DNA from: a virus | Taxonomy: Duplodnaviria > Caudoviricetes | Virus record (IMG/VR): IMGVR_UViG_3300029959_000012 | Span: 2,421-66,420 of that record | Length of the DNA: 64,000 bases | Reading direction: 5' to 3' (one strand) | In this document: one piece after another, positions 3,099 through 62,957 of the stretch | How the letters are laid out: each line of letters starts with the position of its first letter | Position numbering within the stretch: the stretch's first letter is position 1 | Notes under the pieces: model-generated | What the model was told of the DNA's origin: nothing | What the model saw: the letters and a program-made list of their open reading frames with translations, nothing else | Database searches by the model: none | Program-made: the position numbers and the translations under genes

Positions 3099-3199
3099 TT
3101 TATATAATGTTAAGATCCACCTGTATGTACCCCCCATTAAATAGCAACACAATGATAGAAGGTTACGCTTGTTGTTTCCTTCTTTGTTGTTTTGTTATG
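3099..3199 (+). ncRNA. dispersed hairpin sRNA-like element, copy E1
   Basis: TTTATATA, then GATCCACCTGTATGT, then a hairpin ending CTTTGTTGTTTTGTTATG. Confidence 0.65.
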
Positions 3200-3280
3200 G
3201 CGAGGCTGTTCGTTGGCACTTCTATTGTTCACGCCTATCATCTAACGCCGATATACTCTTATGTGGTAAATAACTGATTT

Positions 3281-3634
3281 GTGGTTATGATTCCAACGAT
3301 TATGGTCAAGAAGGGCGATACTCAACCTCTTGAATATACCATTGAAAAATATGTAGTTGAGAAGGGTGGTGTTATACCAGTTGATATATCAGGATGTCTT
3401 GTAAGTTTCTCGATGATCCGGGATGGGAACCTCACCTGGGATATCGATCAAGCATCGTGCACTGTTGTTACTGCAACTCAAGGTTTAGTAGAATACCCAT
3501 GGGATACCGATGAAACTGCAACCACTGGAATGTATCGTGCTAAATTCAGTGTGGTGGATCAGGATGATAAAATATGGTCATTTCCCGATTATGGTGTGCA
3601 GTGGATTTATATCTACGATGATGCAACAATGTAA
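3281..3634 (+). CDS. BppU N-terminal-like (baseplate upper) domain protein
   Basis: KKGDTQPLEYTI...VDISGCLVSFSM...GLVEYPW...TGMYRAKFSV pattern. Confidence 0.65.
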   Translation: MVMIPTIMVKKGDTQPLEYTIEKYVVEKGGVIPVDISGCLVSFSMIRDGNLTWDIDQASCTVVTATQGLVEYPWDTDETATTGMYRAKFSVVDQDDKIWSFPDYGVQWIYIYDDATM

Positions 3635-3722
3635 TAACCTTATAAACATTTCCACTAATTTTATAATATTGTTTGCATTTTATCCATTATATATAAATAC
3701 AATTAGGTTACACTTATTAGTA

Positions 3723-3926
3723 ATGAAACGTGTTGCTTACATCCATGATGTTAATGTTTGTGGAAGTGACTGTCCCTACTATGAACAAAACCTAGCCAAC
3801 AGTAAGATCACCTGTAACTATTTTGATCCACCTAAATTCATCAGTGGAAATCGATATTTGGTTGGTCAAGAATTTCCAGATTTCTGTGAACTCAAGGATG
3901 ACATCATCAACAATGGAGTGATGTAA
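3723..3926 (+). CDS. small Cys-rich protein (MKRVAYIHDVNVCGSDCPYY...)
   Basis: ATG at 3723 downstream of TATATAAA; the longer ORF call from 3510 overlaps the upstream gene. Confidence 0.6.
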   Translation: MKRVAYIHDVNVCGSDCPYYEQNLANSKITCNYFDPPKFISGNRYLVGQEFPDFCELKDDIINNGVM

Positions 3927-4013
3927 AAATATGTCGCATAATCAATCACATACAGTGTCTATAACCCAATGTAATGTTGGTTCCATATCAAACTTCAACG
4001 CGGAGATCATCTG

Positions 4014-4751
4014 ATGGTTAAAGTTGTTCTTGGGATTTCAGATACTCATGTTGGTAGTATGTATGGACTTTGTATGCCGAACATGGGATTTGTCCTAAAT
4101 GATGTTCAGCAGTTCCTCTGGGATCATTGGGTTGCAATGTGTAAGGCCATTGGTCATGTTGATTGTGTGATTTGTGATGGTGATATGATTGAAGGCATCA
4201 ACAAGAAAGAAGGCGCCAAACAAACCATACCCGATGTAATGATCCAGGTTAAGATGGCCAAAGCACTACTGTCTATGATCGATGCCGATAAATTTGTGTT
4301 TACTTGTGGCAGTCCATATCATGTTGGTTGCAATCCAAATGCTGATCAGATGTTGTGTGAAATGATGGGTGCCGAATATCTTGAAGAAGATGGCAACGTT
4401 GATGTAGATGACATAGTTATCCACGTTAGACACCACGCATCATACAGTAAAAATCCTGATGGTCGTTACAACAGTCAACAAAAAGACGCAATGATTATGC
4501 GCTTAAATGAGGATAAGGCCGACATCATTTTGCGTGGTCACACTCACCGTTTCAATTACAGTGGTAACATTCACAACATAACAATTAGTATTCCGTGTTG
4601 GAAATCACTTGATGCTTTCATGCGACGAAGCAGTTCAGAATTGCCTGATTGTGGCTACATTTTGATGAAGATTGATGGTGCCGATTATTCCTGGGATCAA
4701 ATGGTCTTCAATGTGCCCAACAAACTATTTAGAAAGCGCGTGAGGATTTAA
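4014..4751 (+). CDS. calcineurin-like metallophosphoesterase
   Basis: ISDTHVG, CDGDMIEG, HH and RGHTH metal-binding motifs. Confidence 0.85.
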   Translation: MVKVVLGISDTHVGSMYGLCMPNMGFVLNDVQQFLWDHWVAMCKAIGHVDCVICDGDMIEGINKKEGAKQTIPDVMIQVKMAKALLSMIDADKFVFTCGSPYHVGCNPNADQMLCEMMGAEYLEEDGNVDVDDIVIHVRHHASYSKNPDGRYNSQQKDAMIMRLNEDKADIILRGHTHRFNYSGNIHNITISIPCWKSLDAFMRRSSSELPDCGYILMKIDGADYSWDQMVFNVPNKLFRKRVRI

Positions 4752-4801
4752 TAACACTGTCAATCAATAATATTTTATAATTTCACACCACATATTATTG
4801 T

Positions 4802-5071
4802 ATGGGATATAGATTAACTATTGATGAAATTATTCAATCTATGAGAAATGATATTCATTTTAATAGTTGCATGGTTCAAGTAAAACTTGGAATTGATTAT
4901 GAAAAGATACACTTGTTAGATAGAATTGATATTAGAAATGTTTTAAACGATCTTGAATTTGCCATTGATATGAGAGAAGAACATTTTTCAAGCGATATGG
5001 ATTGCTATAGATGTTTATATAAAACACTCAAATGGAAAGAACAACTCTTCTTTGAAGATTTGAAAGAATAG
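4802..5071 (+). CDS. hypothetical protein
   Basis: 89-aa ORF with TTTTATAA about 30 nt upstream. Confidence 0.55.
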   Translation: MGYRLTIDEIIQSMRNDIHFNSCMVQVKLGIDYEKIHLLDRIDIRNVLNDLEFAIDMREEHFSSDMDCYRCLYKTLKWKEQLFFEDLKE

Positions 5072-5092
5072 AACAATTCATATAAGCAACAC

Positions 5093-5190
5093 CATAACAA
5101 AACAACAAAGAAGATCTGGAAACAAGTTCTAGACCTTCTATATTGTTTCGTCGTTGGGCACATACAAGTTGTTCTTAACGTTATATAAAA
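5093..5190 (-). ncRNA. dispersed hairpin sRNA-like element, copy E2
   Basis: Reverse strand: TTTTATATAA, AACTTGTATGTGCCC, about 22-bp hairpin, CTTTGTTGTTTTGTTATG. Confidence 0.65.
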
Positions 5191-5196
5191 CTATCG

Positions 5197-5449: not shown

Positions 5450-5450
5450 T

Positions 5451-9421: not shown

Positions 9422-9871
9422 ATGCAAAACAGATTGGTAACGATACTACTTCTCTTGGTAATCTCCACAGGTGTATGCTATGCTGATAACGATCTCATGA
9501 CCACCATTATTGACAATGTAGTAAGTGATCAACTTTACAAACCATGTGTTGATTGCTATGATCCAAATCCAACACCTGCTCCAGTATATACCCCAGTCGG
9601 TGTTGACTTCATGATTAGTAATAGCCAAGTTCGCGCTGGACAACCTACCACCATTACTGGATTTCAAACAAGTGGAACAACCCTTGGTGATAACACATGG
9701 TGGCAATACACAATACAGAGTGGATCCGAAGTTAAAGTTCTCAATGGACAATCTATAACATTCAAACCCAAATCAAGTGGAAAAACCTACTATGTTGCAC
9801 TAACCGCACGAGACAGCACCCAGATGCTCAATGGTTACATCAAAAAGCAAGGTGCGATCAGATCGGTGTGA
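9422..9871 (+). CDS. secreted or membrane-anchored Ig/PKD-like protein
   Basis: Signal peptide (RLVTILLLLVISTGVCYA), Pro-rich linker and a beta-rich C-terminus; own TATA box; opposite strand to its neighbours. Confidence 0.65.
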   Translation: MQNRLVTILLLLVISTGVCYADNDLMTTIIDNVVSDQLYKPCVDCYDPNPTPAPVYTPVGVDFMISNSQVRAGQPTTITGFQTSGTTLGDNTWWQYTIQSGSEVKVLNGQSITFKPKSSGKTYYVALTARDSTQMLNGYIKKQGAIRSV

Positions 9872-9927: not shown

Positions 9928-10017
9928 TTTATATAGTGTGACGATCCACCTGTATGTACCCCACGTTAACTAAATGACAATAAGAGGGAGAAGTCCTTCT
10001 TTTGTTGTTTTGTTATG
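9928..10017 (+). ncRNA. dispersed hairpin sRNA-like element, copy E3
   Basis: TTTATATA, GATCCACCTGTATGTACCCC, hairpin, TTTTGTTGTTTTGTTATG. Confidence 0.65.
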
Positions 10018-10106
10018 GTGGCTGTTTTGACTATCCTTCGCTTAATTTGAAACCGTGGCGTATAGCGTCAATGGTGGATTCAGCCAGGTAACAATAGAAT
10101 TTCACT

Positions 10107-10192
10107 CATAACAAAACAACAAAAGGAGAATCTTCTCCCTTGTTATCTTATTACTTGGGGCACATACATATATGTTGACAATGTTATAAAAA
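10107..10192 (-). ncRNA. dispersed hairpin sRNA-like element, copy E4
   Basis: Reverse strand: TTTTTATAA, ATGTATGTGCCCC, about 20-bp hairpin, CTTTTGTTGTTTTGTTATG. Confidence 0.65.
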
Positions 10193-10193: not shown

Positions 10194-12419
10194 TTATTGG
10201 TTGGTTTCTAGATCTTCCTCTGCGTATACGTTGTCTTCTAGTTCTATAGTTCTGAATATTACAAAGCCTGTTTTATCATCGTATTTAGCCATTTTGATGA
10301 GTTTGCTACCGAATTCGGTTATGAGGTTGATGATGTAGTGGCCAAGTTCATTGAAATTGTTATATATATTTTGGATACCTCGCTCATCTATACCTGGTTC
10401 TAATGGAACTTGGCGTTGCACACAATTACATGAATCATTGATGAATTGTCCAACTTTACAACGAATGTCCTGTATGGTGATTCCATCTATAAATGATTTG
10501 ATTGGAATTTGGGTTTCAGTATTTTCACTACAAGTTACATCATCCACGAGATTCAATATGCGGTAGTGGATGTTTATGGCATTGGTATAAGTTTTGGTGT
10601 TTGTCCCAAATGCATTGGTTGCTGTGAGTGATACTGTATAATTTCCATGGGTTGCAAATGCGTGGATATTACTTGATGTAGCAGGAGTTTCATCGCCGTA
10701 ATTCCACGAATATTCGGTGATTATATCATCGGGGATTGTGAGATTGGTGAACGTTATGGTGCACGGCAATGAAGGTCCAATGATATTCATATATGCTGGC
10801 TTGAAATTAGCATGTGGTGGAGTTCCTGTTGTAATTGTAATTGAATGTGATGAGAATTGGTGATAATTATTCCATATATTTAATGAAATGTTGTGATTGC
10901 CTGTGGTGTTGAATATATAAAGAGGTTCGTTTATGTCAGTTAATGTGGTGGAATCTATGTTCCAAACAATGCTAGTTGGATATTCTCCTAGAGATGTATC
11001 ATAGGTTGTTGTATTTTTGAATTGAATATTGCTTGGTATGGAAAGATCATCAAGTATAGTATAGGTGAAGTTTGTGTCTGGGATTGGGGTATCAACGGTG
11101 ATTGTTTTTGTTGATGGGAATTCATTGTAATGTTGTTGGTTTGAACTATATAGTGAGATTTCATAGGTTCCGGGCAAATTGTATATGTGAGTTGGGTGTT
11201 GATCAATACTTGTGTTTTCATCTCCAAATTGCCAAAACCATTCATTGGGAGATCCGTTTGATGTATCTGTGAGTGAAATTTTATTATTTATTTGAGTATA
11301 TGTGAATGAAGGTGTAATTGAAGGGGTATTTACTGTTATTGTTGCTTGTTTTGTATATAATGTATTGTCTGATGTAGAATTTGCACTTACAAATAAATTA
11401 TATGTACCATAAGTATCGTATGTATGATTTATTGTTGTTGGTAGTGATGGTATTGATTCTGTGTGTCCATCACCGTGATTAATTATAATGTTGTTTAATG
11501 ATATGGTAGATGATATTGTTGATGTAACTAGTAATGGGACAATCCCTGTAGTTGTTGATATGTATAAGTCTAATTCAGAATGTGATATGGATTCCTCATT
11601 GGTCCATGTGGAATGTGTTGGATCCGTGCTATAATTTCTAATTAATATATTTGAAAATTTAATGGTTATACCACTATACATGTCATGATCTAGCGAAAAT
11701 ACTCCAGTTGAGCCAATATCACTTGTTGAAATGTATTGGGTGTTGTTGATTTTGATGATTATCGATGATGAATTTCTCCAAATCTCAATTTTATAATCAG
11801 TGTTTGCCGTTAGTGGAGGATATGCTTTGATTTCACTACCAGCATAATATGATAGTTGGTTATAAGCATAGAATAATTTAACTGGGTTCGGTATGTTTAT
11901 TGCAGTACCATATTGATTGTCTTGTGATACATTGATTGTGGTTGTTATATATTCATTTCTAGATAAAGAGATCCCAGAAGTTATTGATCCAGATCCAGTA
12001 GAAGTTGTTTGTAACTTACCAGATACAATTGACCATGAACCAGAATTGATGGTCCACTTTGATAGATCACCGCTGAAATCATCAAATAAGATGAATGTGT
12101 TTGTTGCATTTGATTCAGAGGTGGCTATTGCATTTCCATAGTATATTTCAAGTGTGGTGTTTAAAATGGTTCCTATTTTTACCCATACTATTGCAGATAC
12201 CCCAGAAACGTAACTTTCAATCCAATATGGTTGTGGTAATCCTAATAATGCGAATCGCAGATCACTAAAGTTATCATTGCAGTGACCATTACAATACATT
12301 GTGGAATCAGATGAAGTTCCAGTTCCCTTATATATTGTTAATTTAACTTGGTAATTAGTTAGTTGTGTCGCAGAATTTAATATATGTGTTTGTTTATAAT
12401 TCCATAATTCATATACCAT
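10194..12419 (-). CDS. DUF2341 plus PKD-domain virion or adhesion protein
   Basis: N-terminal NYQVKLTI...FSDLRF...YWIES...VWVK...IYYGN (DUF2341) and several PKD repeats (WFWQFGDENTS...PTHIY..PGTYEISL; WNYGD...GNYTVSLTATN). Confidence 0.85.
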   Translation of the reverse strand: MVYELWNYKQTHILNSATQLTNYQVKLTIYKGTGTSSDSTMYCNGHCNDNFSDLRFALLGLPQPYWIESYVSGVSAIVWVKIGTILNTTLEIYYGNAIATSESNATNTFILFDDFSGDLSKWTINSGSWSIVSGKLQTTSTGSGSITSGISLSRNEYITTTINVSQDNQYGTAINIPNPVKLFYAYNQLSYYAGSEIKAYPPLTANTDYKIEIWRNSSSIIIKINNTQYISTSDIGSTGVFSLDHDMYSGITIKFSNILIRNYSTDPTHSTWTNEESISHSELDLYISTTTGIVPLLVTSTISSTISLNNIIINHGDGHTESIPSLPTTINHTYDTYGTYNLFVSANSTSDNTLYTKQATITVNTPSITPSFTYTQINNKISLTDTSNGSPNEWFWQFGDENTSIDQHPTHIYNLPGTYEISLYSSNQQHYNEFPSTKTITVDTPIPDTNFTYTILDDLSIPSNIQFKNTTTYDTSLGEYPTSIVWNIDSTTLTDINEPLYIFNTTGNHNISLNIWNNYHQFSSHSITITTGTPPHANFKPAYMNIIGPSLPCTITFTNLTIPDDIITEYSWNYGDETPATSSNIHAFATHGNYTVSLTATNAFGTNTKTYTNAINIHYRILNLVDDVTCSENTETQIPIKSFIDGITIQDIRCKVGQFINDSCNCVQRQVPLEPGIDERGIQNIYNNFNELGHYIINLITEFGSKLIKMAKYDDKTGFVIFRTIELEDNVYAEEDLETNQ

Positions 12420-12511
12420 GATTAAGGTTATTGTGTGATGTTTACTTTATAAAAAAGGAGTGAACAGTGTAAATTCTGTGAATATTATAAATTATGTGAA
12501 TGGTGTAAATT

Positions 12512-14659
12512 TTATAGCATTGAATTTGGTATAATATCTATGGCTGGAATGAATTGATTATCTGCTGAATTTGAAATTCCTATTAAATAATTGTTGTATG
12601 ATATTAAACTTACATGTCCATATGACATCACAATACCAGTATCAATAAATGTTTGATTTCCATCAAATACAACTAGTTGGTGACTATCTCTGCAAGTTCC
12701 ATATAATTTTCCATTATGTTCACAACACGTTCTTACTTGGAATCCAGAAGGAGCGCTAAAACTAACTGCGGTTGAACCAAAATCATTTAAGTTTGATAAC
12801 ATTGTAAATTTTTGGGAAGTTATTGCGAATACATATAGTTTATTATTAAATGGGATCATTGCGTATGCTCCAGAAACATCAGCAATTGTTTTGGTGTGTG
12901 GTATATTGCTTAAAATAGAGTCATAAACTCCATTTATATCATAAATTTGATCAAATAAGACACCCGTGGAATCCCCTTCATATGTTCCGTTCCATGTGCC
13001 AGTCCCTCCAATAAATCTATCATTAAAAATACATCCAGAACTAATAGAATTATCTATGTTAAATTCAAAACTATTAGTTATTGAAGTAATACTAGAATTA
13101 ATTAAATTATTATAACATCTACCACTTAAACAATATGATGAAATCAATCCAGAACCAGTTGAATATAATACTCCTCCGGCAGTTCCACCACATTCAAGAA
13201 ACCCAACTTTAATCCAATAATCAATACCATAAGATACAATATGAATAGCATTGTCATCTGGTGTAGTTGAGATTGATAATGATATAACTCCACCATTACC
13301 ATGAGTAAATTCTCCAATAGATACACAAATCATATCATTTATTACTGTTCCTTGTCCTCCATACATGGAATACCAAGATTTTGTGGGACTTGTTACGTTG
13401 ATATTGATACAACCATTTGTTATTTTTTCAATTGTTTTTGGAATTTTATCTGTGTAAATTTCTCCAGAGCAAACTAATACATTGTATGATTTTGTTAAAC
13501 CGGTTAATGTAGGGCCCATTGTAATGGTCGGGGGATCAAATGTATGTGATACAATTTTTCCGGTTTTTAATATGGCCGGACTTGAATTGTAATTTAGATC
13601 CCAAGTATAGTCATCATATGTATCTCCATTTAAACATTTGTTTGTTGGGGTTGATGTTATTTTGGCTGTTAAAGTTGCAGTTAAATCTGGTAAGGTATAA
13701 TTCCATAAACTTGCATTTACAGGTAATGGAAATAGTATTGGAAATGTGGTGCATCCGGTAAACGATATTTCATTTGTGGTGCAATGTGCTAAATAATCAA
13801 ATGGGAATGTTCCGTGGAATACTGTTGCTAAAATCCCATTACCACTATAAGTTAATAAATGCCAGACATCGTTATCATCTAAATAGAAGGTATAATCCCA
13901 ATATAAGTGTGAATTGTAATCTCCAGCCCAGATTTCGATATTATCGCAGTCAAATTTGTATTCAAAATATAAATCATATACACTGCCCCCACCATCTTCC
14001 CAAATATATGTTTCTGTCCCGTGGTTTGTTATACCGTAACCTAAAAATTTATAATGGGTTGGATATCCAAACAATCTAGGATCATCTGGTGTTGTTGGTA
14101 GAGGATTTAACTGACCAACTGCTGATGTTCTAAATGCTATTCTTGATTGAATACTACAATTTAAACATACGCATTTTGTGCTGCATGGTTTACAGCAACC
14201 AATTTCATATGTCTGTGATTGTGACTTTGTTTCTCTGAATGAAAATATATCCTCTTTATATTCAAGTGTGTTTGTAGTAAAATTATCATTTAATTTAACC
14301 CAATCTGGAACTGCTTCTGTTCCTTTATTAAACCATATTGAAACAAAATAAGATGGTATTTTTTCTCCGTAAGTTTCTATGAATATGTAATTTCTACCAG
14401 TTCGGCATTTCCTAACTTCAAAAATTGCTTCTGCTTCGTCACTTTGAGGTTCAAGAACGAATCTAATTGTAAAATATCCATTATATAAATACCCACAATT
14501 TGTTATTTTTGCATAAGTAGAATTATCACCATAATAAACAGGAGCACCAGGATCAGATGGTGAGTGAGTTTTATCGTTAACTAACGCAAATCTATGAAGC
14601 CATATATAACAATCAGATACCAGAGTGCCATAAACTCGTTGTTCATTTCCCACAATCAT
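12512..14659 (-). CDS. tail tip or adhesin-like structural protein
   Basis: 715 aa, beta-rich, one PKD-like segment (YTWDLN...VSHTF), within the tail module. Confidence 0.6.
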   Translation of the reverse strand: MIVGNEQRVYGTLVSDCYIWLHRFALVNDKTHSPSDPGAPVYYGDNSTYAKITNCGYLYNGYFTIRFVLEPQSDEAEAIFEVRKCRTGRNYIFIETYGEKIPSYFVSIWFNKGTEAVPDWVKLNDNFTTNTLEYKEDIFSFRETKSQSQTYEIGCCKPCSTKCVCLNCSIQSRIAFRTSAVGQLNPLPTTPDDPRLFGYPTHYKFLGYGITNHGTETYIWEDGGGSVYDLYFEYKFDCDNIEIWAGDYNSHLYWDYTFYLDDNDVWHLLTYSGNGILATVFHGTFPFDYLAHCTTNEISFTGCTTFPILFPLPVNASLWNYTLPDLTATLTAKITSTPTNKCLNGDTYDDYTWDLNYNSSPAILKTGKIVSHTFDPPTITMGPTLTGLTKSYNVLVCSGEIYTDKIPKTIEKITNGCININVTSPTKSWYSMYGGQGTVINDMICVSIGEFTHGNGGVISLSISTTPDDNAIHIVSYGIDYWIKVGFLECGGTAGGVLYSTGSGLISSYCLSGRCYNNLINSSITSITNSFEFNIDNSISSGCIFNDRFIGGTGTWNGTYEGDSTGVLFDQIYDINGVYDSILSNIPHTKTIADVSGAYAMIPFNNKLYVFAITSQKFTMLSNLNDFGSTAVSFSAPSGFQVRTCCEHNGKLYGTCRDSHQLVVFDGNQTFIDTGIVMSYGHVSLISYNNYLIGISNSADNQFIPAIDIIPNSML

Positions 14660-31735: not shown

Positions 31736-31759
31736 GATGTCGGCGTTTACTATTTATAA
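31736..31759 (-). promoter_or_regulatory. TATA box plus AACGCCGACATC element of the tape-measure gene promoter
   Basis: TTATAAAT-agta-AACGCCGACATC, 6 nt, ATG; the same element and spacing recur at 37689-37709 and 41199-41219. Confidence 0.55.
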
Positions 31760-31889: not shown

Positions 31890-31971
31890 GCTAGGTATGT
31901 GCGCCTGTTTTAGCCTTGGATTGTCAATTAGACAGTAATGGTAGCGTTTTAAAAATAGAGTTTGGTGGTGA

Positions 31972-32543: not shown

Positions 32544-32641
32544 CATAACAAACAACAAAGGAATGGATCTGGATCGGATCTTGTTTCCTGTGTTATTAGT
32601 TAGGTTGTGCACATACAGGTTGTTTCTAATGTTATATATAA
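32544..32641 (-). ncRNA. dispersed hairpin sRNA-like element, copy E6
   Basis: Reverse strand: TTATATAT-type TATA, AACCTGTATGTGCAC, about 18-bp stem, CTTTGTTGTTTGTTATG. Confidence 0.65.
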
Positions 32642-32687
32642 TTTGCTGTTGTATATAACAAGGTGAATTATATAAAAGGTTGTGGGG

Positions 32688-36231: not shown

Positions 36232-36281
36232 ATTAGTTGGGTGACGTTTACTTTATATATAGTGAAACATAATATTAATTC

Positions 36282-36407
36282 ATGAAGGTGCGATGTCCTT
36301 ATTGTGGGTGTGAAAGGGTGATGAAACGATGCAATATCAGTGAAGTTAAAGATAAGGATCCCAATGATATGGTGATGGTGTGTAAGAAGTGTTGGCGTTA
36401 CTTTTAA
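36282..36407 (+). CDS. small zinc-ribbon protein (41 aa)
   Basis: MKVRCPYCGC...VCKKCWRYF, with two CxxC pairs and TTTATATA about 30 nt upstream. Confidence 0.65.
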   Translation: MKVRCPYCGCERVMKRCNISEVKDKDPNDMVMVCKKCWRYF

Positions 36408-36464
36408 GTGCGATGTTTCAACTTGTATGATCGTTAGTTTTATATATCTACAACGCTAATATGG

Positions 36465-36730
36465 TAGTGTAAGATTCGTGGAGATCTTACAGCGAATACC
36501 TTGACGATATTTCATGGTTGACACTCCATTAACGCTTTCAACCCGAGAAAGGGCGGGTAAGTATCGTTGACAAAGGTGTTTCCTAGCATCTAATGAGTCA
36601 TGAATAGTCACACAACACGGCTGTCACCTTGTTGTTTTGTAAACGTGGAGGTTTTTCCCAGTGGTGTTACTCCCACATCATTGGTTTTTTACTTCACGTT
36701 TACAAAGTCATATGACAACTAGTTATTTTC
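36465..36730 (+). ncRNA. candidate structured RNA of about 265 nt
   Basis: TTTTATATAT at 36438; stems TGTAAGAT/ATCTTACA, TTGTAAACGTGGAG/CTTCACGTTTACAA and CCAGTGGTGT/ACATCATTGG; no ORF. Confidence 0.55.
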
Positions 36731-41174: not shown

Positions 41175-41233
41175 GATTTACCTTTTATAAATCTAATGGA
41201 TCGGCGCATAGAATTAATAGTATATACAATAAC

Positions 41234-41323
41234 TTTATATAGTGTGAAGGACCACCTGTATGTTGACCCAAGTAGCAAGACGAACGGAAAAGGGGAATCT
41301 TCTTTTCTTGTTGTTTTGTTATG
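41234..41323 (+). ncRNA. dispersed hairpin sRNA-like element, copy E7
   Basis: TTTATATA, GACCACCTGTATGTT, about 22-bp stem, CTTGTTGTTTTGTTATG. Confidence 0.65.
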
Positions 41324-41411
41324 ATGGTTCTGCTGTTTTTAAATCGCTTGAATTGTAAGTTCGGGTCTTTTGGTAGGTATTGTTTTATAATATTACATCA
41401 TATGTATTGTT

Positions 41412-41732: not shown

Positions 41733-43391
41733 TTATCCTTGATTTATTCTTTTTAATGGTTCGCGGGCTGCTGCATCACCAACATCGGTTGGTTGGGTGT
41801 TGGCGCTATGACGAGTTGTTGGATATTTTGGTGATTTAGTAGTAGAGTTGGTTGATATACCATCAGTTTCACCTTTGTCACTACCAAGGCTTTCGCGGGC
41901 CATTGCCTGATCCATTGATTTAGATTGGAGTGGAGTTGGTTTGACAATGTCTTTTCGCTGTTCTTCGGTAAGTGGTTTGAGGCCAATTTCTGCACGTATT
42001 TCTGCGCTAGTGCATTCACCGAGTTCTTTCTTCATGATGGCGTTTTTGTGATTGTCGATAGTGTTGCTGGACATGTCGTAACTAATTGTGCATTCGAGCC
42101 ATTCGACTGGATATTGCGAGTTTATTAGGGATAGACGTTCTTTGATGACTTTGAGTATGACACGTGATAGTTTGGTGGTCATTTGTTCGATCTTGAGTGA
42201 AGCGTAACTATAGATGGCGAGTTCACCCGCGTAATTTGAGGTGGATTGGCCCTTAATGATTGAAACGGGCATGTTTATGGCGCTGAAGATGCTCTCGGTA
42301 GTTTGATCGAGGAGTTCGTTGGCCTGGACGAAGTTGGCATTTTTGGGTTCGACATATTGCAGGGTTGTGGTGTCAAGGTGGACGAACGCGGCATCGGGTG
42401 CGGTGTTTTCGAGGGCTGATTTCTGCATTTCCACAGTGTTGGTTGCGTCTGACACCGCTTTTTGCATACGAACTTCGGGTGTGCCTACATATTGACCGGT
42501 TGAGAAGGATTCTCCTTGGATGCTGCAGTCTAGTTTGGGCATTGCTTTATATCGCCACATTGCATCGTTGGCCATTAATACACGACGATACCATACGGGG
42601 ATTACGGCGCGACGAAGTGGCGAAACTGCGTAGATTCCATAGGTGTTGCGACCCTTGCAATCTTCCACGTATATGGGTGTGTCTCGTAATCGAATGATGA
42701 CGAATTCATCTTTAGAGAGGATTTTTTGGCTTGGAAGTTGCTCATCGAGCACGAGGTAGTTGGCTTCGGTGATTAGGTTGTCATAACCAATTTGGTTCAT
42801 CGCGGGGTTGTGTATGCGATCCGGGTGATCGATGATTGTGACGCGATCATTGGGTAGGACTGTTATGGAGAGGTTTGATCGTATCCATAGGAATAAGTTG
42901 CCGTGGATTTGGAGGATGCTGGCCCACGCTTCGAGCATATCGCTGATGTAAAGTTCAGTACCCAATTTGTTAGCAACATCGACCATTTCAGATGCGAGGG
43001 CTTTCTTGGCCTTGTTGAATGTTATTGTGGTGTCATCATCAACATACAGGCTATTTGGCATGTTGTCCATTTCGCTGTCATTGACGAGGCTGAAGCACTT
43101 GAAGGCTTTGCGAACCATCAGGCTGCTGGCATCGATGCTAGTGGCGATTTCGGGTTCCATTACGTAGAGGTGTTCTAGAAGTTCATCACGGTTGTATCGC
43201 GTCATATCGCTGATGCTTTCAACGAAATTCACGAAGTTGCTTTGGCTGTATTGGGCGGCTAGACTACCTGCTATTGCGGGGTTGATGAAGTCAGCACTGG
43301 ATTGTTTGGAACTTTTGCTGCCATAAGGTGCGCTAAAATGGTGTTTTCGCGACGTTATGGAACGAGGATTGTAATTGGACTTTTTTGACAT
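41733..43391 (-). CDS. portal protein
   Basis: 552 aa between terminase and protease genes; YAVSPLRRA and IFSAINMPVSIIKG portal-type motifs. Confidence 0.8.
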   Translation of the reverse strand: MSKKSNYNPRSITSRKHHFSAPYGSKSSKQSSADFINPAIAGSLAAQYSQSNFVNFVESISDMTRYNRDELLEHLYVMEPEIATSIDASSLMVRKAFKCFSLVNDSEMDNMPNSLYVDDDTTITFNKAKKALASEMVDVANKLGTELYISDMLEAWASILQIHGNLFLWIRSNLSITVLPNDRVTIIDHPDRIHNPAMNQIGYDNLITEANYLVLDEQLPSQKILSKDEFVIIRLRDTPIYVEDCKGRNTYGIYAVSPLRRAVIPVWYRRVLMANDAMWRYKAMPKLDCSIQGESFSTGQYVGTPEVRMQKAVSDATNTVEMQKSALENTAPDAAFVHLDTTTLQYVEPKNANFVQANELLDQTTESIFSAINMPVSIIKGQSTSNYAGELAIYSYASLKIEQMTTKLSRVILKVIKERLSLINSQYPVEWLECTISYDMSSNTIDNHKNAIMKKELGECTSAEIRAEIGLKPLTEEQRKDIVKPTPLQSKSMDQAMARESLGSDKGETDGISTNSTTKSPKYPTTRHSANTQPTDVGDAAAREPLKRINQG

Positions 43392-43680: not shown

Positions 43681-45168
43681 TCAGAACCTTCGCATCATGA
43701 TGACTGGTTTGTAAGTTGCTCCGGTTTCATGACTTGTCAAATACCAGATACAATTTGCTACACAGTCGCTAACGTCCTTGCTTCCATTCCAAGGATGATC
43801 CGGCTTTATTTTTCCAGTCGCGGTCTGTTTCTTGACTAATTGTCTTGCTTCTCGAAGTAGCAATTCGTCGTGAACAACATCGAGTTGATATGGGCCTATT
43901 CCATCGTTAAGTTCAAGCCATTGGGAATATGCATCGATACCTGCTACATGTTTAACAAGTTCTATACCGTGATTTTTTACTTCTTCAAGTGTTTCTAAAT
44001 ACATATCAGTATCAAATATAAATGCTTGAACATGTAGTTTATTGATCCATTCTAAAATGTAATTTCTTATATCAGATGGTTTAATAAACGCTTCGTTTGA
44101 TGCTATTTTTTCAAATCGCTTAACTCCATCAATTATTATGTGTTCTCCTACTCTATAACCAACCGCAATACCAAAACTATCATTACGATATGCAGGATCT
44201 ATTGCCATTACGTGGTGGATGTGGTTATAATCATCTGGTAATTCATCTCGTTCAAATACATTGATCATTGGAGTGAGTCTAACTCCTCCTGGAAACATCA
44301 GTCCACCACTTACTTCTGGCTGATTAGCAAAGTCACGGTAGAAGATATCCATCTTATATTTGTATTCTTCACGAAGAACTTCTTCTGATACTTCTGGTGA
44401 AGGGTTGACTTCCCATGTCTTAAATGAAACAGCAAGGGTTAATTCTCCTTTTTCTGGAGTCATTTCTTCAAGTCCATCATAGTATAATTTATTAATTAGA
44501 CCATCTGTATATTGAACCGATGAAATTGCTACTACTTTGCCGTTTCGACCAAGAGTTTTTGTGGAATTGACAAATTTTGAATATATCATGTCACTTCCCA
44601 TCTTGGAATCTGTCTTTTGAAAAAGGTCAATCTCGTCAAAAAATGCCGCTTTTGCCGTATAACCGGCCGCGGTGGCTGCGTTGGCAGCACGGACCTGCAT
44701 AAAGACGTTTTTTTCTTCACATTCTATTCGATCTTCTTTATATTTTAAAGTCCAATACTTATTGATAAATTCAGATTCTTTTAAGAACCCAGATGCTAAT
44801 CTATATATACCATCTCTAGCCTGATCTGCTCCAGCAGCCACACAACTCACTACGATTGGCTGTATACTTACTAATCCGTAATGTTCTGCTGGGTTTTCAA
44901 GTGATATTAACTCAAAAAACTCGAAACATGCCATGGATGAAGCAAGTAAGGTCTTCCCAGCGCGCTGACCAATTCGAAGCACTAACTTCTTGTATTCTTG
45001 ATTTTGATCACTATACTTGTGTCGATAGAAATCTCTAACAATTTTTTCTTGTGCCGGGTATAGAGTTTTAAATCCTAAAACTTCTTTTATAAAATAAACA
45101 GGATCGTTTCTGCATTTATTGACTTCCTTTGAAAATTCAATACTTTCAGCAACAGAGTCAAATTTCAT
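43681..45168 (-). CDS. terL: terminase large subunit
   Basis: Walker A GQRAGKT, Walker B AFFDEID, nuclease AIDPAYRND and KDVSDCVA. Confidence 0.93.
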   Translation of the reverse strand: MKFDSVAESIEFSKEVNKCRNDPVYFIKEVLGFKTLYPAQEKIVRDFYRHKYSDQNQEYKKLVLRIGQRAGKTLLASSMACFEFFELISLENPAEHYGLVSIQPIVVSCVAAGADQARDGIYRLASGFLKESEFINKYWTLKYKEDRIECEEKNVFMQVRAANAATAAGYTAKAAFFDEIDLFQKTDSKMGSDMIYSKFVNSTKTLGRNGKVVAISSVQYTDGLINKLYYDGLEEMTPEKGELTLAVSFKTWEVNPSPEVSEEVLREEYKYKMDIFYRDFANQPEVSGGLMFPGGVRLTPMINVFERDELPDDYNHIHHVMAIDPAYRNDSFGIAVGYRVGEHIIIDGVKRFEKIASNEAFIKPSDIRNYILEWINKLHVQAFIFDTDMYLETLEEVKNHGIELVKHVAGIDAYSQWLELNDGIGPYQLDVVHDELLLREARQLVKKQTATGKIKPDHPWNGSKDVSDCVANCIWYLTSHETGATYKPVIMMRRF

Positions 45169-52788: not shown

Positions 52789-52881
52789 TTAATATGTTGG
52801 TAATGACCACCTGTATGTGCCCATTAGTGACAAGACAAAAGAAGGGCGAGGGAAACCTTGTCCTTTGTTTGTTTTGTTATG
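52789..52881 (+). ncRNA. dispersed hairpin sRNA-like element, copy E8
   Basis: GACCACCTGTATGTGCCC, 24-bp stem (one mismatch) closed by a GAAA tetraloop, ending GTTTTGTTATG. Confidence 0.7.
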
Positions 52882-52995
52882 AGGTTGATTCTGTGCGTTG
52901 TGGGCTCTGTTTTGAAAATCTAGTTGATTTGGTAGGCATTGAAAGGTTTATTGGCGTGCGATAGTTTTATATAGTTTGGCAACATAGATGTATCC

Positions 52996-54584: not shown

Positions 54585-54857
54585 TCGTTTGGGTAATAGC
54601 GATAAGGTAAGTTTATAATTTTTTGCTTGACCATGTTGTGTGTCGTTAGGGTTAAATTGGTGAGATTTTTATAAATTTTTTATGAGTGGGTATCAAATAT
54701 GTTGAGTGGGTATCGTTAGGGTAAAGTTGAAAAATGGTGAAGTGATAGATAACAAGGTGCTTGTGGCAGGTCCGGCCCTATAGGCTTATAATTTTTATTC
54801 CTCCACAACTTCCACAATCTCCTATATAAATCCTCCTATTAACCCGGCAAAATAATC

Positions 54858-55044
54858 CTCCACATATATAAAACTAACTCATCCCGCGCATAAATTATCG
54901 TTTCACTTCATATATAAATCTATCTAAATGATCCTCCACATAGTATATAAAACTAACTGATCAACCTGGTCATCCGCGCACATAAAATCCCTATATAAAC
55001 TTATCCATTCACAGTGTGAACAAAAACTCCACATATATAAAACT
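54858..55044. repeat. three copies of CTCCACA(TAG)TATATAAAACTA
   Basis: At 54858, 54934 and 55027; each is followed by a CGCGCA-containing segment. Confidence 0.85.
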
Positions 55045-55251
55045 ACCTGCTAGACGCGCAATCTAAAAATGTGTGCGCTTTAACACCACGTAACACGATC
55101 ACCACTATTCGTATGCCAAAACCCTTCTAGTTTTATCTATCAAAACATATAAAACTCTAAAACAATCACATAAGCACGATATAGCACCCGGTCACCTATC
55201 CATCCGCTCATACCAACCCCTACAAATAAAGTGATTATTGTGCTCAAATTT

Positions 55252-55358
55252 ATCTATATAGATCACAATATGGATCTATATAGTTATCACACCGATCTAT
55301 ATAGAATGTAAAGTTTCCTTTACAAAATATATAGATCCATATTGTGATCTATATAGAT
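55252..55358. repeat. 31-bp perfect inverted repeat with CTATATAG palindromic units
   Basis: 55252-55282 is the reverse complement of 55328-55358. Confidence 0.9.
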
Positions 55359-55381
55359 TTTCTTCAAATATATAGGAAAAA

Positions 55382-55397
55382 TTCGACAATTGTCGAA
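55382..55397. repeat. 16-bp perfect palindrome TTCGACAATTGTCGAA
   Basis: Read directly from the sequence. Confidence 0.9.
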
Positions 55398-56010
55398 GTC
55401 GAACGGTTTGAAAAAGAAGGCCAAATTGAAGTTTAAATAAAATCGGAAGATTTGATCTCTGATTATTTATTTGGTATCCAGCGAAGTGTGATATAGCACA
55501 CAAAAAAAAATAACCTCAAATTCTAAATGGTTTTGGTGCGCATGGCTTAAAAATGCTTAAATTTTTTCAGAACAAAAAAAAAATACGGAAAGGTCTAATG
55601 TTTTGAAATTGTCAGTAGGGGTTAATTCTGAAAATAGTGAATTTAATTTTTGTATCGTTTGGAGAAGTATATAGGCTCAAAAATCAACCGATATATATAT
55701 AGTCTGAGGCAGGAGAGAGGGTTAAAACACCTATCAGCATTATATAAAAATATCAAATCTCAAATCTAACCATTTTAATACAATTTCAACCTTCAAAAAA
55801 TAACCCCAAATTAAGCGATTTCACAACTATAATATATAATATAATAAAGAGATAAACCCAACGATATAAAAATAAAATATTAACATACACTATCTATCTT
55901 TCCCATATATAAAGACATCGGTAAAAATCCACCCAAACGATACACAAAAATAAATCCAAATCCAAAATATCCCCCGTTTCAAAAGTGCGCATGTATCATC
56001 ATGTTGATGA

Positions 56011-56040
56011 TAAACCATGATAAACCATGATAAACCATGA
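56011..56040. repeat. (TAAACCATGA)x3 tandem repeat
   Basis: Read directly from the sequence. Confidence 0.9.
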
Positions 56041-56638
56041 ACATTCTCACCACCCAAAATATCCTGCAACTTTTGAAAACCATCAAAGAACATCCCTGTG
56101 CAAAACAACTACATCCCAATACTAAACTCCATATCATCACCATAATCACCTAAAATCTCCAACACAACAAATCCTATACCCACGCTCATCACCTAATAGC
56201 GACCCGCTATAAAACTCCTATATAAATCTATCTCCAAAATATCGTTCATTGTCTTATACCACATCGTCAATCACCATATAAAATAACTCCAAAATGTCCA
56301 GATAATCATTTCAGCGCTCCTAACAATCTCAAAAAATCCACTACCAAATTTCCACCCGATTTCATCCATATATTCAACCCTAACGACAACTATATATCCT
56401 CACAAGTAGACATTATAGTGTATCAGGTGAGAGCCTAATACAACGTGAAGACGATTACAAACGCGGTGAGGCGCGTTAATCGTTCGAAAGATCCCCAATG
56501 CCTCAGCACAAGTGTTATCGCCTATACCAGTCCCAATTGGGCAACTGACTGTATAGGCGATAACATCTTGAAACATTCCCGTAGAGCAAAGCGAGCCTTA
56601 AAACTCCTTTGCGCGGAGAAACAGGAACACAAAAAACC

Positions 56639-60995: not shown

Positions 60996-61397
60996 TTTTA
61001 TAAATATTTATAAAACTATTTTTATATAAAATAAAATAATTCACAATTGTGAATATAAAACTATTAATATATAAATAATATTATAAAACTATCATTATAA
61101 AATTATTCGTTTTTCACCGGATTTCAAAAACCTCATAAACTCCTCTAACTACCAAACCACAACTAATTTCCAGTTATTTTTCACATATTACCGCGCAAAT
61201 CATCCATTTCAAAAACCAACCACAAATAAACTAAATAACAACCAAATCCTATATATTACTGGAAACTAATTTTCAACCACACCCGCATATTACCGGCGCC
61301 CAAATCACATTTCAAAACATTACACCTCAATCTATCCACCAAAACATTTAACTACAATTAAAGCCAATATAGTATATACACAGGAGCACCATCGACC

Positions 61398-61559
61398 ATG
61401 ACACAAAAATGTAATCACATCTTCGTCCACCACATGACCTCTGAATGGATCGACGACACTCACTACATCATTGTCTATCAATGCGTCAACTGTAAAGCAG
61501 AACAACGCCAACACCTCACATTGCAAGAAACAATCATCTATGAATGTGAAGATCTCTAA
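61398..61559 (+). CDS. small Cys/His-rich protein (53 aa)
   Basis: MTQKCNHIF...CVNC; CAGGAG upstream. Confidence 0.5.
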   Translation: MTQKCNHIFVHHMTSEWIDDTHYIIVYQCVNCKAEQRQHLTLQETIIYECEDL

Positions 61560-61588
61560 ACTACTAAATTAAAAAGGAAAACCCTAGT

Positions 61589-61774
61589 ATGACATTTAAC
61601 AACGAATTCACCGAACAAGACCTCTACACCGATCTCTCCCGTGTATCTCGCAACCTCTTCCAAGTTGCACGAGATCTAGAAACCGAAGGCGACAAATTCA
61701 CCGCATCAGAAATCGATGAACAACTCATTATCATCAATGACATACTTTCCAAATTGGAGATTGATGCACCATGA
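61589..61774 (+). CDS. hypothetical protein
   Basis: AAGGA Shine-Dalgarno; coupled to the next ORF. Confidence 0.55.
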   Translation: MTFNNEFTEQDLYTDLSRVSRNLFQVARDLETEGDKFTASEIDEQLIIINDILSKLEIDAP

Positions 61775-62040
61775 CAACCATAACCCTACCAAACCAACCA
61801 ACTACCGCCCTCACCCTAACCGAAACTTCCCAAGCCATCGAAGCCCGCATCATCCCCCTGATCACCCACCACAACCACATCATAGCAGCCTTGTCATCAA
61901 CACCGAATGCAACTTATACATCTCAAAACATCAGCACCGAATTTAACAAACTACTATCTGACATCACCAAAGCCCAGGCAGCCCTCGACAAAGCCTACCT
62001 ATCCATCGGCGCCTACCAAATCAAACACCATCTCATCTAA
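61771..62040 (+). CDS. hypothetical protein
   Basis: ATGA overlap with the previous ORF. Confidence 0.55.
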   Translation: MTTITLPNQPTTALTLTETSQAIEARIIPLITHHNHIIAALSSTPNATYTSQNISTEFNKLLSDITKAQAALDKAYLSIGAYQIKHHLI

Positions 62041-62305
62041 CGATGAGGCGCCAGCGCAAGCCTCACAACTAGATGCTTCGCACAAGCCCTGCTTTCCACT
62101 TACAAAACTAAAAGGACAACATCAAAATGACACGATCAATCCGCGTTTACGACAACTCAACCTGCGAAACCTGTCCATACTACCAGATCACTAACTCCAG
62201 TGCCTGTAACCAATACATCCGAACAACCAACGGTAAATGTAATCATCCAGAGTCAAGCACGTGCTCCAACGTATCCACCATCTTCATTGATGAGGAATAA
62301 TAAGT

Positions 62306-62605
62306 ATGATCGTACCAACTGAAAAGTTTAATCCACAAGGACTTCAAAAATCCACTTTCGATTACTACATCAACGAAGCAGAAAAACTAATCACATCAGG
62401 ATCCTCAAGCGATTTAAAAACAGCAGAAATCATCCTTACAATGCTCAACGACTACATAACCCATGATCATGAATTCCTCTGCCTAAAGTGCAAAAATGCA
62501 ATCGACTACCCAGACAGCCTCCAATGTAAATTCAACCTTACCAACGACTTCAGATGTCCAAAATTTGAAGATTTCTCCACCATACCAGCAATGATAACAC
62601 CATAG
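62306..62605 (+). CDS. hypothetical zinc-binding protein
   Basis: CLKC...C...C; GAGGA Shine-Dalgarno. Confidence 0.55.
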   Translation: MIVPTEKFNPQGLQKSTFDYYINEAEKLITSGSSSDLKTAEIILTMLNDYITHDHEFLCLKCKNAIDYPDSLQCKFNLTNDFRCPKFEDFSTIPAMITP

Positions 62606-62616
62606 GAGCCCTAACA

Positions 62617-62856
62617 TTGTCACCTAACACTCCATCTACAAACTGTCTCCACCACCTAGATCCAGACAACCCCACCACAGTCACCCACATAACATGCAAA
62701 TCATGTCACAAAACCCTACCCACTACCGCCTACTATCCCTGTATGATAACCAACAAACAATTCACCTGTAAAGAATGCCACAAATTACAACGGCGTCGAA
62801 GGTATTTAATCCAAAGTGCATTACATAAATCAAACAATGACAATAGTAAACAATAA
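62617..62856 (+). CDS. zinc-finger protein
   Basis: CKSCHKTLPTTAYY...CKECHK..RRRR; similar in type to 48135-48386. Confidence 0.6.
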   Translation: MSPNTPSTNCLHHLDPDNPTTVTHITCKSCHKTLPTTAYYPCMITNKQFTCKECHKLQRRRRYLIQSALHKSNNDNSKQ

Positions 62857-62857
62857 C

Positions 62858-62957
62858 TATTTATACCATAACAACCTACCTGTATGTGCACACTTACCTA
62901 ACATCACGTAACAGAACTTCAAGGCATGTTCCTTGTTGTTCTTTTCGTTTTGTTATG
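62858..62957 (+). ncRNA. dispersed hairpin sRNA-like element, copy E9
   Basis: TATTTATA, CTACCTGTATGTGCAC, interrupted long stem ending CGTTTTGTTATG. Confidence 0.6.

What the first reader, a model, noticed from the sequence alone, without database searches (positions are those of the whole stretch)
3099..62957. Nine dispersed, individually promoted hairpin elements: candidate new viral small-RNA family
Seen in the sequence: nine intergenic copies at 3099+, 5190-, 9928+, 10192-, 31792+, 32641-, 41234+, 52789+ and 62858+. All share one architecture: a TATA-like box (weakest in E8), a conserved (CCA)CCTGTATGT(G/A)C motif, a short variable linker, a long imperfect hairpin (about 14-24 bp) with a variable loop, and a conserved 3' arm CTTTGTTGTTTTGTTATG. 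The 5' arm differs in every copy but keeps pairing, largely through G:U wobbles (E5: 20 of 21 positions pair; E8: 23 of 24 with a GAAA tetraloop). This fixes the functional strand and points to selection on single-stranded structure plus a sequence-specific 3' arm. The TATA-to-motif spacing matches the TATA-to-ATG spacing of leaderless genes here (27-32 nt), which puts the start site near TGTATG. Reading frames are not conserved between copies. Inference: about 70-80-nt viral sRNAs. Options are decoys for a host RNA-binding protein (archaeal SmAP/Lsm binds U-rich RNA), RNA antitoxin or anti-defence mimics, or a scaffold followed by a variable 3' guide as in TnpB/Cas12 RNAs. I do not recognise this element from any known family.
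Basis: partly seen in the sequence, partly recalled or inferred. Interest (0 to 1): 0.92.

Follow-up and report, generated by a model that had tools for sequence, protein, structure and literature searches.

The report
Promoter-hairpin RNA units in archaeal virus
An uncultivated tailed archaeal virus carries about 15 copies of a roughly 100-base unit (own promoter, strand-specific hairpin, often a T-run stop signal) that most likely make a new family of small structured RNAs at gene-module borders; no RNA data were available to show that they are transcribed.

Summary
All nine copies lie at the stated places and are far beyond chance. Six more lie on a second contig that is probably the other half of the same ~131-kb virus. 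Diverged copies occur in at least four, probably five, related uncultivated viruses, partly at the same gene junctions.

The hairpin is strand-specific: 102 G·U against 4 A·C oppositions in 31 copies. It covaries (88.7% of cells paired against 75.8% shuffled and 52-65% slid). A TATA box that the search model did not include lies upstream of nearly every copy. A T-run follows within 30 nt in 20 of 31 copies (background 19%).

The genes after E6, E7, E8 and E9 have their own leaderless promoters, so those four elements are separate transcription units, not leaders. Rfam holds nothing like them.

Best reading: a new family of small (~65-105 nt) structured viral RNAs with a family-specific promoter. 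They sit at module borders, often as inward-facing pairs around 0-5 accessory genes.

The closest analogues are T4-type PeSL promoter/stem-loop cassettes and halovirus HF2 promoter repeats. The TnpB-guide option has no support. The SmAP-decoy option could not be tested (host unknown). Other notes on this genome had already recorded the convergent pairs.

The parts
3099..3199 (+). E1: TATA box, CCTGTATGT initiator motif and a 23-pair hairpin. No T-run within 70 nt. It follows the stop of ORF 2548-3054 and is the left, sense member of the pair around the genes at 3281-5071.
   Evidence: (66.4 bits)
5093..5190 (-). E2: the same unit on the minus strand. It is the right, antisense member of the E1/E2 pair. 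No T-run within 70 nt.
   Evidence: (67.5 bits)
9928..10028 (+). E3: unit plus tail, with a T4 run at 10025-10028. It follows the plus-strand ORF 9422-9871 (weak PKD match) and converges on E4, with 89 nt between the hairpins.
   Evidence: (70.9 bits)
10107..10192 (-). E4: its TATA box starts 2 nt after the stop of the 741-aa PKD protein gene (10194-12419, minus strand). It converges on E3.
   Evidence: 58.6 bits
31792..31911 (+). E5: unit plus tail, with a T4 run at 31908-31911. It lies back-to-back with the promoter of the 3099-aa tape-measure gene (TATA at 31759, minus strand). It is the antisense member of the E6/E5 pair.
   Evidence: (84 bits)
32544..32642 (-). E6: it follows the tail-chaperone ORFs and is the sense member of the pair around the 121-aa ORF (31972-32337). 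That ORF has its own TATA box at 32368.
   Evidence: (62.3 bits)
41234..41340 (+). E7: unit plus tail, with a T5 run at 41336-41340. It is antisense to the portal-side late genes and back-to-back with the promoter at 41191 (minus strand). Tail bases 41328-41351 are perfectly complementary to plus-strand bases 62405-62428.
   Evidence: (68.1 bits)
52789..52913 (+). E8: weak TATA box (TTAATATG), a 24-pair hairpin with a GAAA loop, and a T4 run at 52910-52913. It sits at the switch from minus-strand to plus-strand genes. The 212-aa gene downstream has its own TATA box at 52966.
   Evidence: (70.2 bits)
62858..62957 (+). E9: its TATA box starts 2 nt after the stop of ORF 62617-62856. The long ORF downstream most likely starts at 63078, from its own TATA box at 63050.
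   Evidence: (61.6 bits)

Best explanation
The elements are genes for a virus-specific family of small non-coding RNAs in an uncultivated tailed archaeal virus. The virus is about 131 kb, seen as two contigs that carry 9 and 6 copies. Each unit has its own archaeal promoter of a distinct class: a BRE-like stretch, a TATA box, a shared proximal motif (RYGTNAAGAWCCACC) and an initiator (TGTATGTGC). Transcription is predicted to start at about GTGC. The predicted RNA is 65-105 nt long. It has a short C-rich 5' end, a 19-27-pair imperfect hairpin and a short G/U-rich tail, and in about two thirds of copies it ends at an oligo-U tract. The lower stem pairs a conserved U/G-rich 3' strand with a purine-rich 5' strand through many G·U pairs. 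I infer that the conserved lower stem and 3' strand form a recognition module for a protein, because they change together in all copies of a virus, while the apical stem and loop vary freely as long as they pair. The units sit at borders between gene modules. They lie either directly after a gene's stop codon or back-to-back with a late promoter, and often form inward-facing pairs around 0-5 accessory genes. I therefore think the RNAs, or the act of making them, regulate or insulate transcription at these borders. This could work by stopping incoming transcription at the hairpin and U tract and by sending short sense and antisense transcripts into the bracketed cassette. As dispersed repeats, they may also act as recombination points for cassette exchange. 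Shown: the anatomy, the strand-specific selection, the promoter and T-run association, the independence from downstream genes, and the conservation across viruses. Inferred: transcription itself, the RNA ends, the protein partner and the regulatory role.
For: Non-chance repeat family. Strong sense-only folding, z = -4 to -8, with the antisense strand much weaker in 7 of 9 copies. In 31 copies from 6 viruses, helices hold 545 Watson-Crick pairs, 102 G·U and only 4 A·C oppositions. Covariation on 22 sequences: 88.7% of cells paired against 75.8% shuffled (0 of 500 shuffles reach it) and 52-65% when slid; 15 of 19 pairs change on both sides. The TATA box was not in the model but is present in 24 of 31 copies against 3.8% background, with near-TATA boxes in the rest. 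A T-run of 4 or more within 30 nt occurs in 20 of 31 copies against 19% (p = 5e-8), and of 5 or more in 8 of 31 against 6.7%. In G002 the tail and T6 terminator are themselves conserved among three of its six copies (c, d, f). The genes after E6, E7, E8 and E9 have their own TATA boxes at leaderless spacing. No frame is conserved. The same junctions are occupied in relatives with 46-49% portal or TerL identity. A convergent pair lies between the tail chaperone and the tape-measure gene in G000, G002, L105 and L112. An antisense copy lies after the portal gene in G000 and L105. Copies within a virus resemble each other more than copies at the same junction in other viruses do (3' arm 0.72 against 0.55 identity). 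Rfam has no match.
Against: Eleven of 31 copies have no T-run of 4 or more within 30 nt, so some may read through. E1 has no separate promoter before the next ORF and may double as its promoter and leader. Much of the lower-stem variation is A/G or C/U change opposite a fixed U/G strand. Any transition there keeps pairing, so that part of the covariation is weak evidence. The covariation alignment was fitted to the model. No partner protein was identified, and no LSM, RNase III or TnpB gene reaches its cut-off in the virus records. The T-rich 3' arm could be read simply as an archaeal terminator. The host is unknown.
Confidence: 0.55

Rival explanations
1. The elements are composite promoter/terminator punctuation cassettes, in the manner of T4-type PeSLs or the T7 promoter plus RNase III-site combinations. 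Their job would be done in cis on DNA and nascent RNA. The hairpin and U-rich arm would stop or process transcripts arriving from the upstream gene, and the promoter would restart transcription. The short RNA would be a by-product, and recombination between copies would shuffle accessory genes.
For: Six of nine copies start 2-57 nt after the stop of a co-directional gene. The 3' arm is an interrupted U tract, and T-runs follow it. Pairs bracket accessory cassettes of 0-5 genes, one of which encodes a metallophosphoesterase. The junctions are variable between relatives: a 121-aa ORF in G000 against an empty pair in G002, L105 and L112. PeSLs have this composition and this association with ORFans (PMC2839356, PMC4122927).
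Against: E5, E7 and E8 have no co-directional gene upstream to terminate. Here the hairpin lies downstream of the start site and would stop the unit's own transcripts. Archaeal RNAP is known to terminate at oligo-T without a hairpin, so the selected 20-25-bp sense-strand fold is not explained. Four downstream genes use their own promoters. No presence/absence polymorphism or recombinant junction was seen.
Confidence: 0.22
2. The elements are the roughly 100-bp terminal inverted repeats of non-autonomous mobile cassettes. The empty pairs would be MITE-like, the loaded pairs small transposons and the single copies solo ends. The inward-facing promoter would be duplicated simply because the two ends are the same sequence.
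For: At least nine inward-facing pairs were found across four viruses. Cargo size varies from 0 to 5 genes. Copies within a genome are more alike than copies at the same position in other viruses.
Against: No transposase lies in any cargo. No conserved outer termini or target-site duplications were found; similarity ends 8-10 nt upstream of the TATA box, in what looks like a BRE. Pair positions are syntenic in viruses that share only 46-49% protein identity. The 102:4 G·U to A·C asymmetry requires selection on one strand of each end. About half of the copies are solitary.
Confidence: 0.08
3. The elements are 5' leaders or attenuators of the downstream genes. The hairpin and T-run would form a regulated terminator, read through with the help of a factor, so that the elements control expression of the genes that follow.
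For: E1, E6, E7, E8 and E9 have co-directional ORFs within about 210 nt. E1 has no other promoter before ORF 3281-3634. The order promoter, linear motif, hairpin, terminator resembles lambda nut and HK022 put leaders (established knowledge).
Against: The genes after E6, E7, E8 and E9 carry their own TATA boxes at leaderless spacing. E2, E3 and E5 have no co-directional gene downstream, and E3 and E4 face each other across 89 nt. The terminal ATG is not conserved in relatives.
Confidence: 0.08
4. The elements are single-stranded DNA hairpins used in replication or site-specific recombination, such as ssi or attC-like sites, and are not RNA.
For: G·T pairs are tolerated in ssDNA hairpins. Structure is conserved while sequence is not, as in attC sites (established knowledge).
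Against: The TATA box lies at a fixed distance and in a fixed orientation. T-runs follow the hairpin. Both orientations occur at the same locus, so there is no link to replication direction. No integrase or HUH nuclease was noted in the proteins scanned.
Confidence: 0.03

Closest known systems
PeSL (promoter-early stem-loop) cassettes of T4-type phages (Arbiol et al. 2010, PMC2839356; Comeau et al. 2014, PMC4122927)
   Same: Dozens of dispersed intergenic repeats that combine a strong promoter with a stem-loop containing G·T pairs. They flank accessory or orphan genes between conserved modules, are genome-specific in sequence, and are proposed to punctuate transcription and mediate cassette shuffling.
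   Different: PeSLs use sigma-70 promoters. Their stem-loop lies within or beside the promoter, before the start site, and is short and GC-rich. All copies are co-directional with the genes and run into an SD sequence and start codon. Here the promoter is an archaeal TATA type, the 20-25-bp A/U/G·U hairpin is transcribed, the unit is often followed by its own T-run, and inward-facing pairs and antisense copies are common.
Class I/II intergenic repeats of halovirus HF2 (Russ, Pfeiffer and Dyall-Smith 2021, PMC8707807)
   Same: A tailed archaeal virus with repeated intergenic sequences that contain BRE, TATA and a conserved initiator-region motif. They are shown to be promoters, and their positions are conserved among related viruses.
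   Different: HF2 repeats are 29-58 bp promoters only, with no transcribed hairpin or terminator. They head long mRNAs of up to 35 kb. There is no sequence similarity, and the host is a high-GC haloarchaeon.
Phage T7 promoter plus RNase III-site combinations (Dunn and Studier 1983; recalled from my own knowledge, not checked here)
   Same: About ten dispersed intergenic imperfect hairpins of roughly 20-25 bp, several directly downstream of phage promoters, that punctuate polycistronic transcription.
   Different: All T7 sites are in the sense orientation and act as processing sites for host RNase III. No RNase III gene was found in these virus records, and most archaea lack the enzyme (from my own knowledge).
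Guide RNAs with a scaffold and 3' guide (TnpB omega RNA, Cas12 crRNA) and viral RNA anti-CRISPRs (repeat mimics)
   Same: A conserved structured part followed by a variable 3' tail. They are individually promoted and present in many copies in a virus.
   Different: No TnpB or Cas gene reaches its cut-off in G000, G001 or G002. Tails are 5-28 nt before the T-run. Three of the six tails in G002 are conserved. Only the E7 tail has a target-like match. The whole hairpin sequence is not conserved, as a CRISPR repeat would be.

Membership tests
Any Rfam 15 family | A covariance-model match at or near the gathering score | tested here: not met
   The only hits are MIR5998 at 36-38 bits against a gathering score of 180, across the E3/E4 inverted pair on both strands, and mir-1277 at 32 against 81 elsewhere. 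Both are artefacts of long inverted repeats.
PeSL-type promoter/stem-loop cassette | A repeated intergenic unit that combines a promoter and a stem-loop | tested here: met
PeSL-type promoter/stem-loop cassette | The stem-loop lies within or upstream of the promoter core and acts as terminator for the upstream gene; the unit is co-directional with, and abuts, the downstream gene's start | tested here: not met
   The hairpin lies about 15 nt downstream of the predicted start. E2, E3, E5 and E7 are antisense to their neighbours, and downstream genes have their own promoters.
PeSL-type promoter/stem-loop cassette | Recombination between copies causes indels or mini-circles | not testable with these tools
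   This needs strain variants or inverse PCR. Only near-identical second assemblies (L098, L111) were available.
HF2-type promoter-bearing intergenic repeat | A conserved repeat containing BRE, TATA and an initiator motif, with positions conserved among related viruses | tested here: met
   motifs; synteny. Promoter activity itself was not tested.
MITE / TIR transposon | Conserved outermost termini and flanking target-site duplication | tested here: not met
   the flanks of nine pairs show no shared termini or direct repeats.
MITE / TIR transposon | A transposase in autonomous copies | tested here: not met
   the cargo comprises a metallophosphoesterase, a weak BppU_N match and unknown proteins. 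There is no transposase domain.
TnpB/Cas12-type guide RNA | A cognate RuvC nuclease gene next to or near the RNA | tested here: not met
   nothing reaches the PF07282 cut-off in G000, G001 or G002. The only TnpB seen (L110) is on the other strand and is one insertion in one relative.
TnpB/Cas12-type guide RNA | A variable 3' segment that matches targets | tested here: inconclusive
   One of 15 tails (E7) has a perfect 24-nt antisense match within the virus. The others are at chance level. The host genome is unknown.
Small protein-coding gene (leaderless micro-ORF) | A conserved reading frame and peptide | tested here: not met
   the frames differ, four copies stop after 4-7 codons, and the predicted start lies after the ATG.
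Stand-alone small RNA gene (generic) | Own promoter, conserved strand-specific structure and own terminator | tested here: met
   The terminator is present in 20 of 31 copies only.
Stand-alone small RNA gene (generic) | A discrete transcript is detected | not testable with these tools

The most novel reading that the evidence does not exclude
The units encode a trans-acting class of archaeal-virus small RNAs. The conserved G·U-rich lower stem and U/G-rich strand would form a scaffold bound by a dedicated viral or host protein. The variable tail or apex would supply specificity. The perfect 24-nt complementarity of the E7 tail to a gene of the same virus would then be the first visible target, with the other targets lying in the unknown host. 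This would be a protein-guided antisense or decoy system with no described counterpart in archaeal viruses.
Probability: 0.2. Interest if true: 0.85.

Novelty: new variant of a known kind. Interest (0 to 1): 0.62.

Why it matters
Non-coding RNAs of archaeal viruses are almost unexplored, and this virus clade has no match in the phage and archaeal-virus genome collection searched. I know of no comparable case in archaeal viruses of a multi-copy, structurally constrained RNA family with its own promoter class that is conserved at the same junctions across deeply diverged relatives. It offers a handle on how these viruses organise transcription, because at least two promoter classes are visible: the element class and a late TATA+GTAAAC class. 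It also bears on how accessory gene cassettes are bracketed and perhaps exchanged. If the RNAs act in trans, they would point to a new protein-RNA partnership in virus-host conflict. The covariance model built here can be used to find more members and, through them, hosts and metatranscriptomes.

Tried and rejected
1. Coding reading. Frames are not conserved and many copies stop early.

2. A closing helix between the C-rich 5' end and the G-rich tail. It looked convincing in E5, E8 and G002, but it is no better than shuffled tails (mean z -0.42; 2 of 31 at p <= 0.05). It reflects composition only.

3. Tails or apical loops as antisense guides to the virus itself. Only the E7 tail matches.

4. 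Target-site duplications or shared termini around pairs. None were found.

5. Rfam. Nothing real.

6. Exact-pattern scans of viral, genome and metagenome collections. They found only this virus again (L001/G001, and L098 = G001 at 99.98%) plus chance hits in bacterial MAGs that the model rejects.

7. The described phage and archaeal-virus collection. No DNA or portal match.

8. TerL- and portal-based scans of IMG/VR. Only G002 was found.

10. The genome search could not take Logan loci or draw relatives of a virus record. Relatives are therefore known only within +/-10 kb of the portal gene.

11. Host assignment through the DNA ligase. Uninformative.

12. One script call returned no answer and was repeated in smaller parts.

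Full report
**What the window is**

The window is bases 2421-66420 of a 66,420-base IMG/VR virus record, which CheckV rates as 46% complete. The record encodes:
- a large terminase (43681-45168, minus strand) and a weak portal match (41733-43391, minus strand);
- tail-tube-like proteins and a 3099-aa tape-measure-size protein;
- a 741-aa protein with PKD domains and a 358-aa protein with an Mtd_N domain;
- an ATP-dependent DNA ligase.

Genes are preceded by TATA boxes at leaderless spacing. Relatives carry a histone-fold gene and a terminase domain named after a Methanocaldococcus provirus. This is therefore an archaeal tailed virus, and its host is not known.

A second IMG/VR contig (G001, 64.6 kb) shares no proteins with the first. 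Its end overlaps the end of this record by 146 bases at 98% identity. It carries PolB, a UvrD-type helicase, a RuvB-like ATPase, NAMPT and an RNA ligase. It is most likely the other half of the same ~131-kb genome. The virus has no match in the described phage and archaeal-virus collection.

**The observation**

A covariance model built from the transcribed part only, without the TATA region, recovers exactly nine copies in this record at 58-84 bits. It finds five strong and one weak copy in G001.

Each copy folds into a 19-27-pair hairpin with z = -4 to -8 against dinucleotide shuffles. The reverse complement folds much less well in seven of nine copies. Reading frames are not conserved. Rfam holds nothing like the family.

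**Relatives**

Pattern scans of the viral, genome and metagenome collections returned only this virus again, plus chance hits. Protein-based retrieval found related uncultivated viruses with 42-57% portal identity.

Diverged but recognisable copies occur in G002, L105, L110 and L112. L108 has one weak hit. In L113 I saw a more diverged unit by eye that the model did not detect. All share:
- a TATA box about 18-20 nt upstream;
- an ATG(T/G)(G/T)NCCC-type initiator region;
- a hairpin with a purine-rich 5' strand and a U/G-rich 3' strand that ends in TTTTGTTWWG.

The terminal ATG of the window's copies is therefore not a conserved start codon.

**Evidence that an RNA fold is selected**

- In 31 curated copies the helices contain 545 Watson-Crick pairs, 102 G·U pairs and only 4 A·C oppositions. 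A DNA palindrome decaying neutrally would give similar numbers of the last two.
- On 22 sequences, 88.7% of cells pair, against 75.8% after shuffling (0 of 500 shuffles reach it) and 52-65% with slid partners. Fifteen of 19 pairs change on both sides.
- Two caveats apply. The alignment was fitted to the model. In the lower stem, every transition in the 5' strand keeps pairing with the fixed U/G strand, so the fully different but still paired apical stems are the stronger evidence.

**Evidence for separate transcription units**

- A strict TATA octamer lies in the expected upstream window in 24 of 31 copies, against 3.8% of random positions. The other seven have near-TATA boxes.
- A run of four or more T starts within 30 nt after the hairpin in 20 of 31 copies, against 19% background (p = 5e-8).
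- In G002 the tail and T6 run are conserved among three of its six copies.
- The genes downstream of E6, E7, E8 and E9 each have their own TATA box at leaderless spacing, at 32368 (minus), 41384, 52966 and 63050. Those four elements are therefore not their leaders. E1 may be an exception.
- The element promoters share a proximal motif (RYGTNAAGAWCCACC) that differs from the TATA+GTAAAC motif of the structural genes. At least two promoter classes therefore exist.
- From the spacing in leaderless genes, the predicted start is at GTGC, just after the motif's ATG.

**Arrangement**

Six of nine copies begin 2-57 nt after the stop of a co-directional gene. The other three (E5, E7, E8) lie back-to-back with a late promoter.

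Inward-facing pairs bracket accessory genes:
- E1/E2 around the ORFs at 3281-5071, which include a metallophosphoesterase and a weak BppU_N match;
- E6/E5 around one 121-aa ORF;
- two pairs in G001 around three and five genes.

E3/E4 and the pairs in G002, L105 and L112 are empty. The member on the 5' side of the cargo is always in the sense orientation.

A pair between the tail chaperone and the tape-measure gene is present in four viruses. An antisense copy after the portal gene is present in two. Even so, copies within a virus are more alike than copies at the same junction in different viruses. This points to concerted evolution, or to co-evolution with a virus-specific factor.

**Interpretation**

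The best-supported reading is a family of small structured RNAs made from a dedicated promoter class. The conserved lower stem and U/G strand would serve as a recognition module, and the RNAs would act at module borders.

The main rival is a PeSL-like punctuation cassette in which the RNA is incidental (PMC2839356, PMC4122927). HF2 shows that promoter-bearing repeats with conserved positions exist in tailed archaeal viruses (PMC8707807).

- The mobile-element reading is weakened by the absence of termini, target duplications and a transposase.
- The leader reading is weakened by the independent promoters of the downstream genes.
- The TnpB/Cas12-guide idea is weakened by the absence of an effector gene.
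- Only one target-like match exists: E7 tail bases 41328-41351 are perfectly complementary to 62405-62428. It remains unexplained.
- A 5'-3' closing helix is not supported.

**Limits**

No expression data could be obtained. Relatives are known only within +/-10 kb of the portal gene. The host is unknown. Function is inferred.

Noticed in passing
window 63855-64000 and G001 (L055) 4469-4614: The last 146 bases of this record match the end of IMGVR_UViG_3300029959_000014 at 98% identity, in reverse orientation. The two contigs share no proteins. One carries the structural genes and the other the replication genes (PolB, helicase, NAMPT, RNA ligase), so they are probably two halves of one ~131-kb virus.
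   Followed up: partly
window 41328-41351 (+) and 62405-62428: The 24 nt that start 4 nt after the E7 hairpin are perfectly complementary to the plus strand inside ORF 62306-62605 (E = 2e-8). No other element tail has such a match. The stretch includes E7's own T5 run.
   Followed up: partly
window, upstream of minus-strand structural genes, e.g. 31759, 37711, 45199, 53975: Late and structural gene promoters share a TATA box followed directly by (A/T)(A/G)GTAAAC, then the ATG about 22 nt on. The same TATA+GGTAAAC motif is seen in relative L108. This promoter class is distinct from that of the hairpin elements.
   Followed up: partly
window 54600-56300: This stretch has few long ORFs and more than ten TTTATATA boxes on the minus strand, several only 33-48 nt apart (54830-55041). 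It also holds a 10-nt tandem repeat (56007-56040). It may be an origin or another set of small transcription units.
   Followed up: no
window 36252-36700 (+): Inside the late operon, antisense to it, lies a leaderless 41-aa ORF with paired Cys motifs (CxxC...CxxC; ATG at 36282) and its own TATA box. A second TATA box at 36439 is followed by about 230 nt of highly structured sequence that ends in T6 (36685-36690) and contains TTGTTGTTTTGT. The same junction in relative L110 holds a true element copy plus a TnpB insertion.
   Followed up: partly
G002 (L068) 11444-14287; L106 8054-9901; L110 7776-9701: The terminase large-subunit gene is far longer in several relatives (947 aa in G002, against 495 here). 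In L106 and L110 it carries intein and HNH Pfam hits on record (faint for the intein in L110). This suggests an intein in TerL.
   Followed up: no
L110 17033-18151: A TnpB (OrfB_IS605 plus Cas12f1-like_TNB) gene is inserted in the middle of the late structural operon of one relative, next to element copy 110b.
   Followed up: no
window 9973-10150: The Rfam 'MIR5998' hits on both strands arise only because E3 and E4 form one long inverted repeat. They are not a microRNA.
   Followed up: yes
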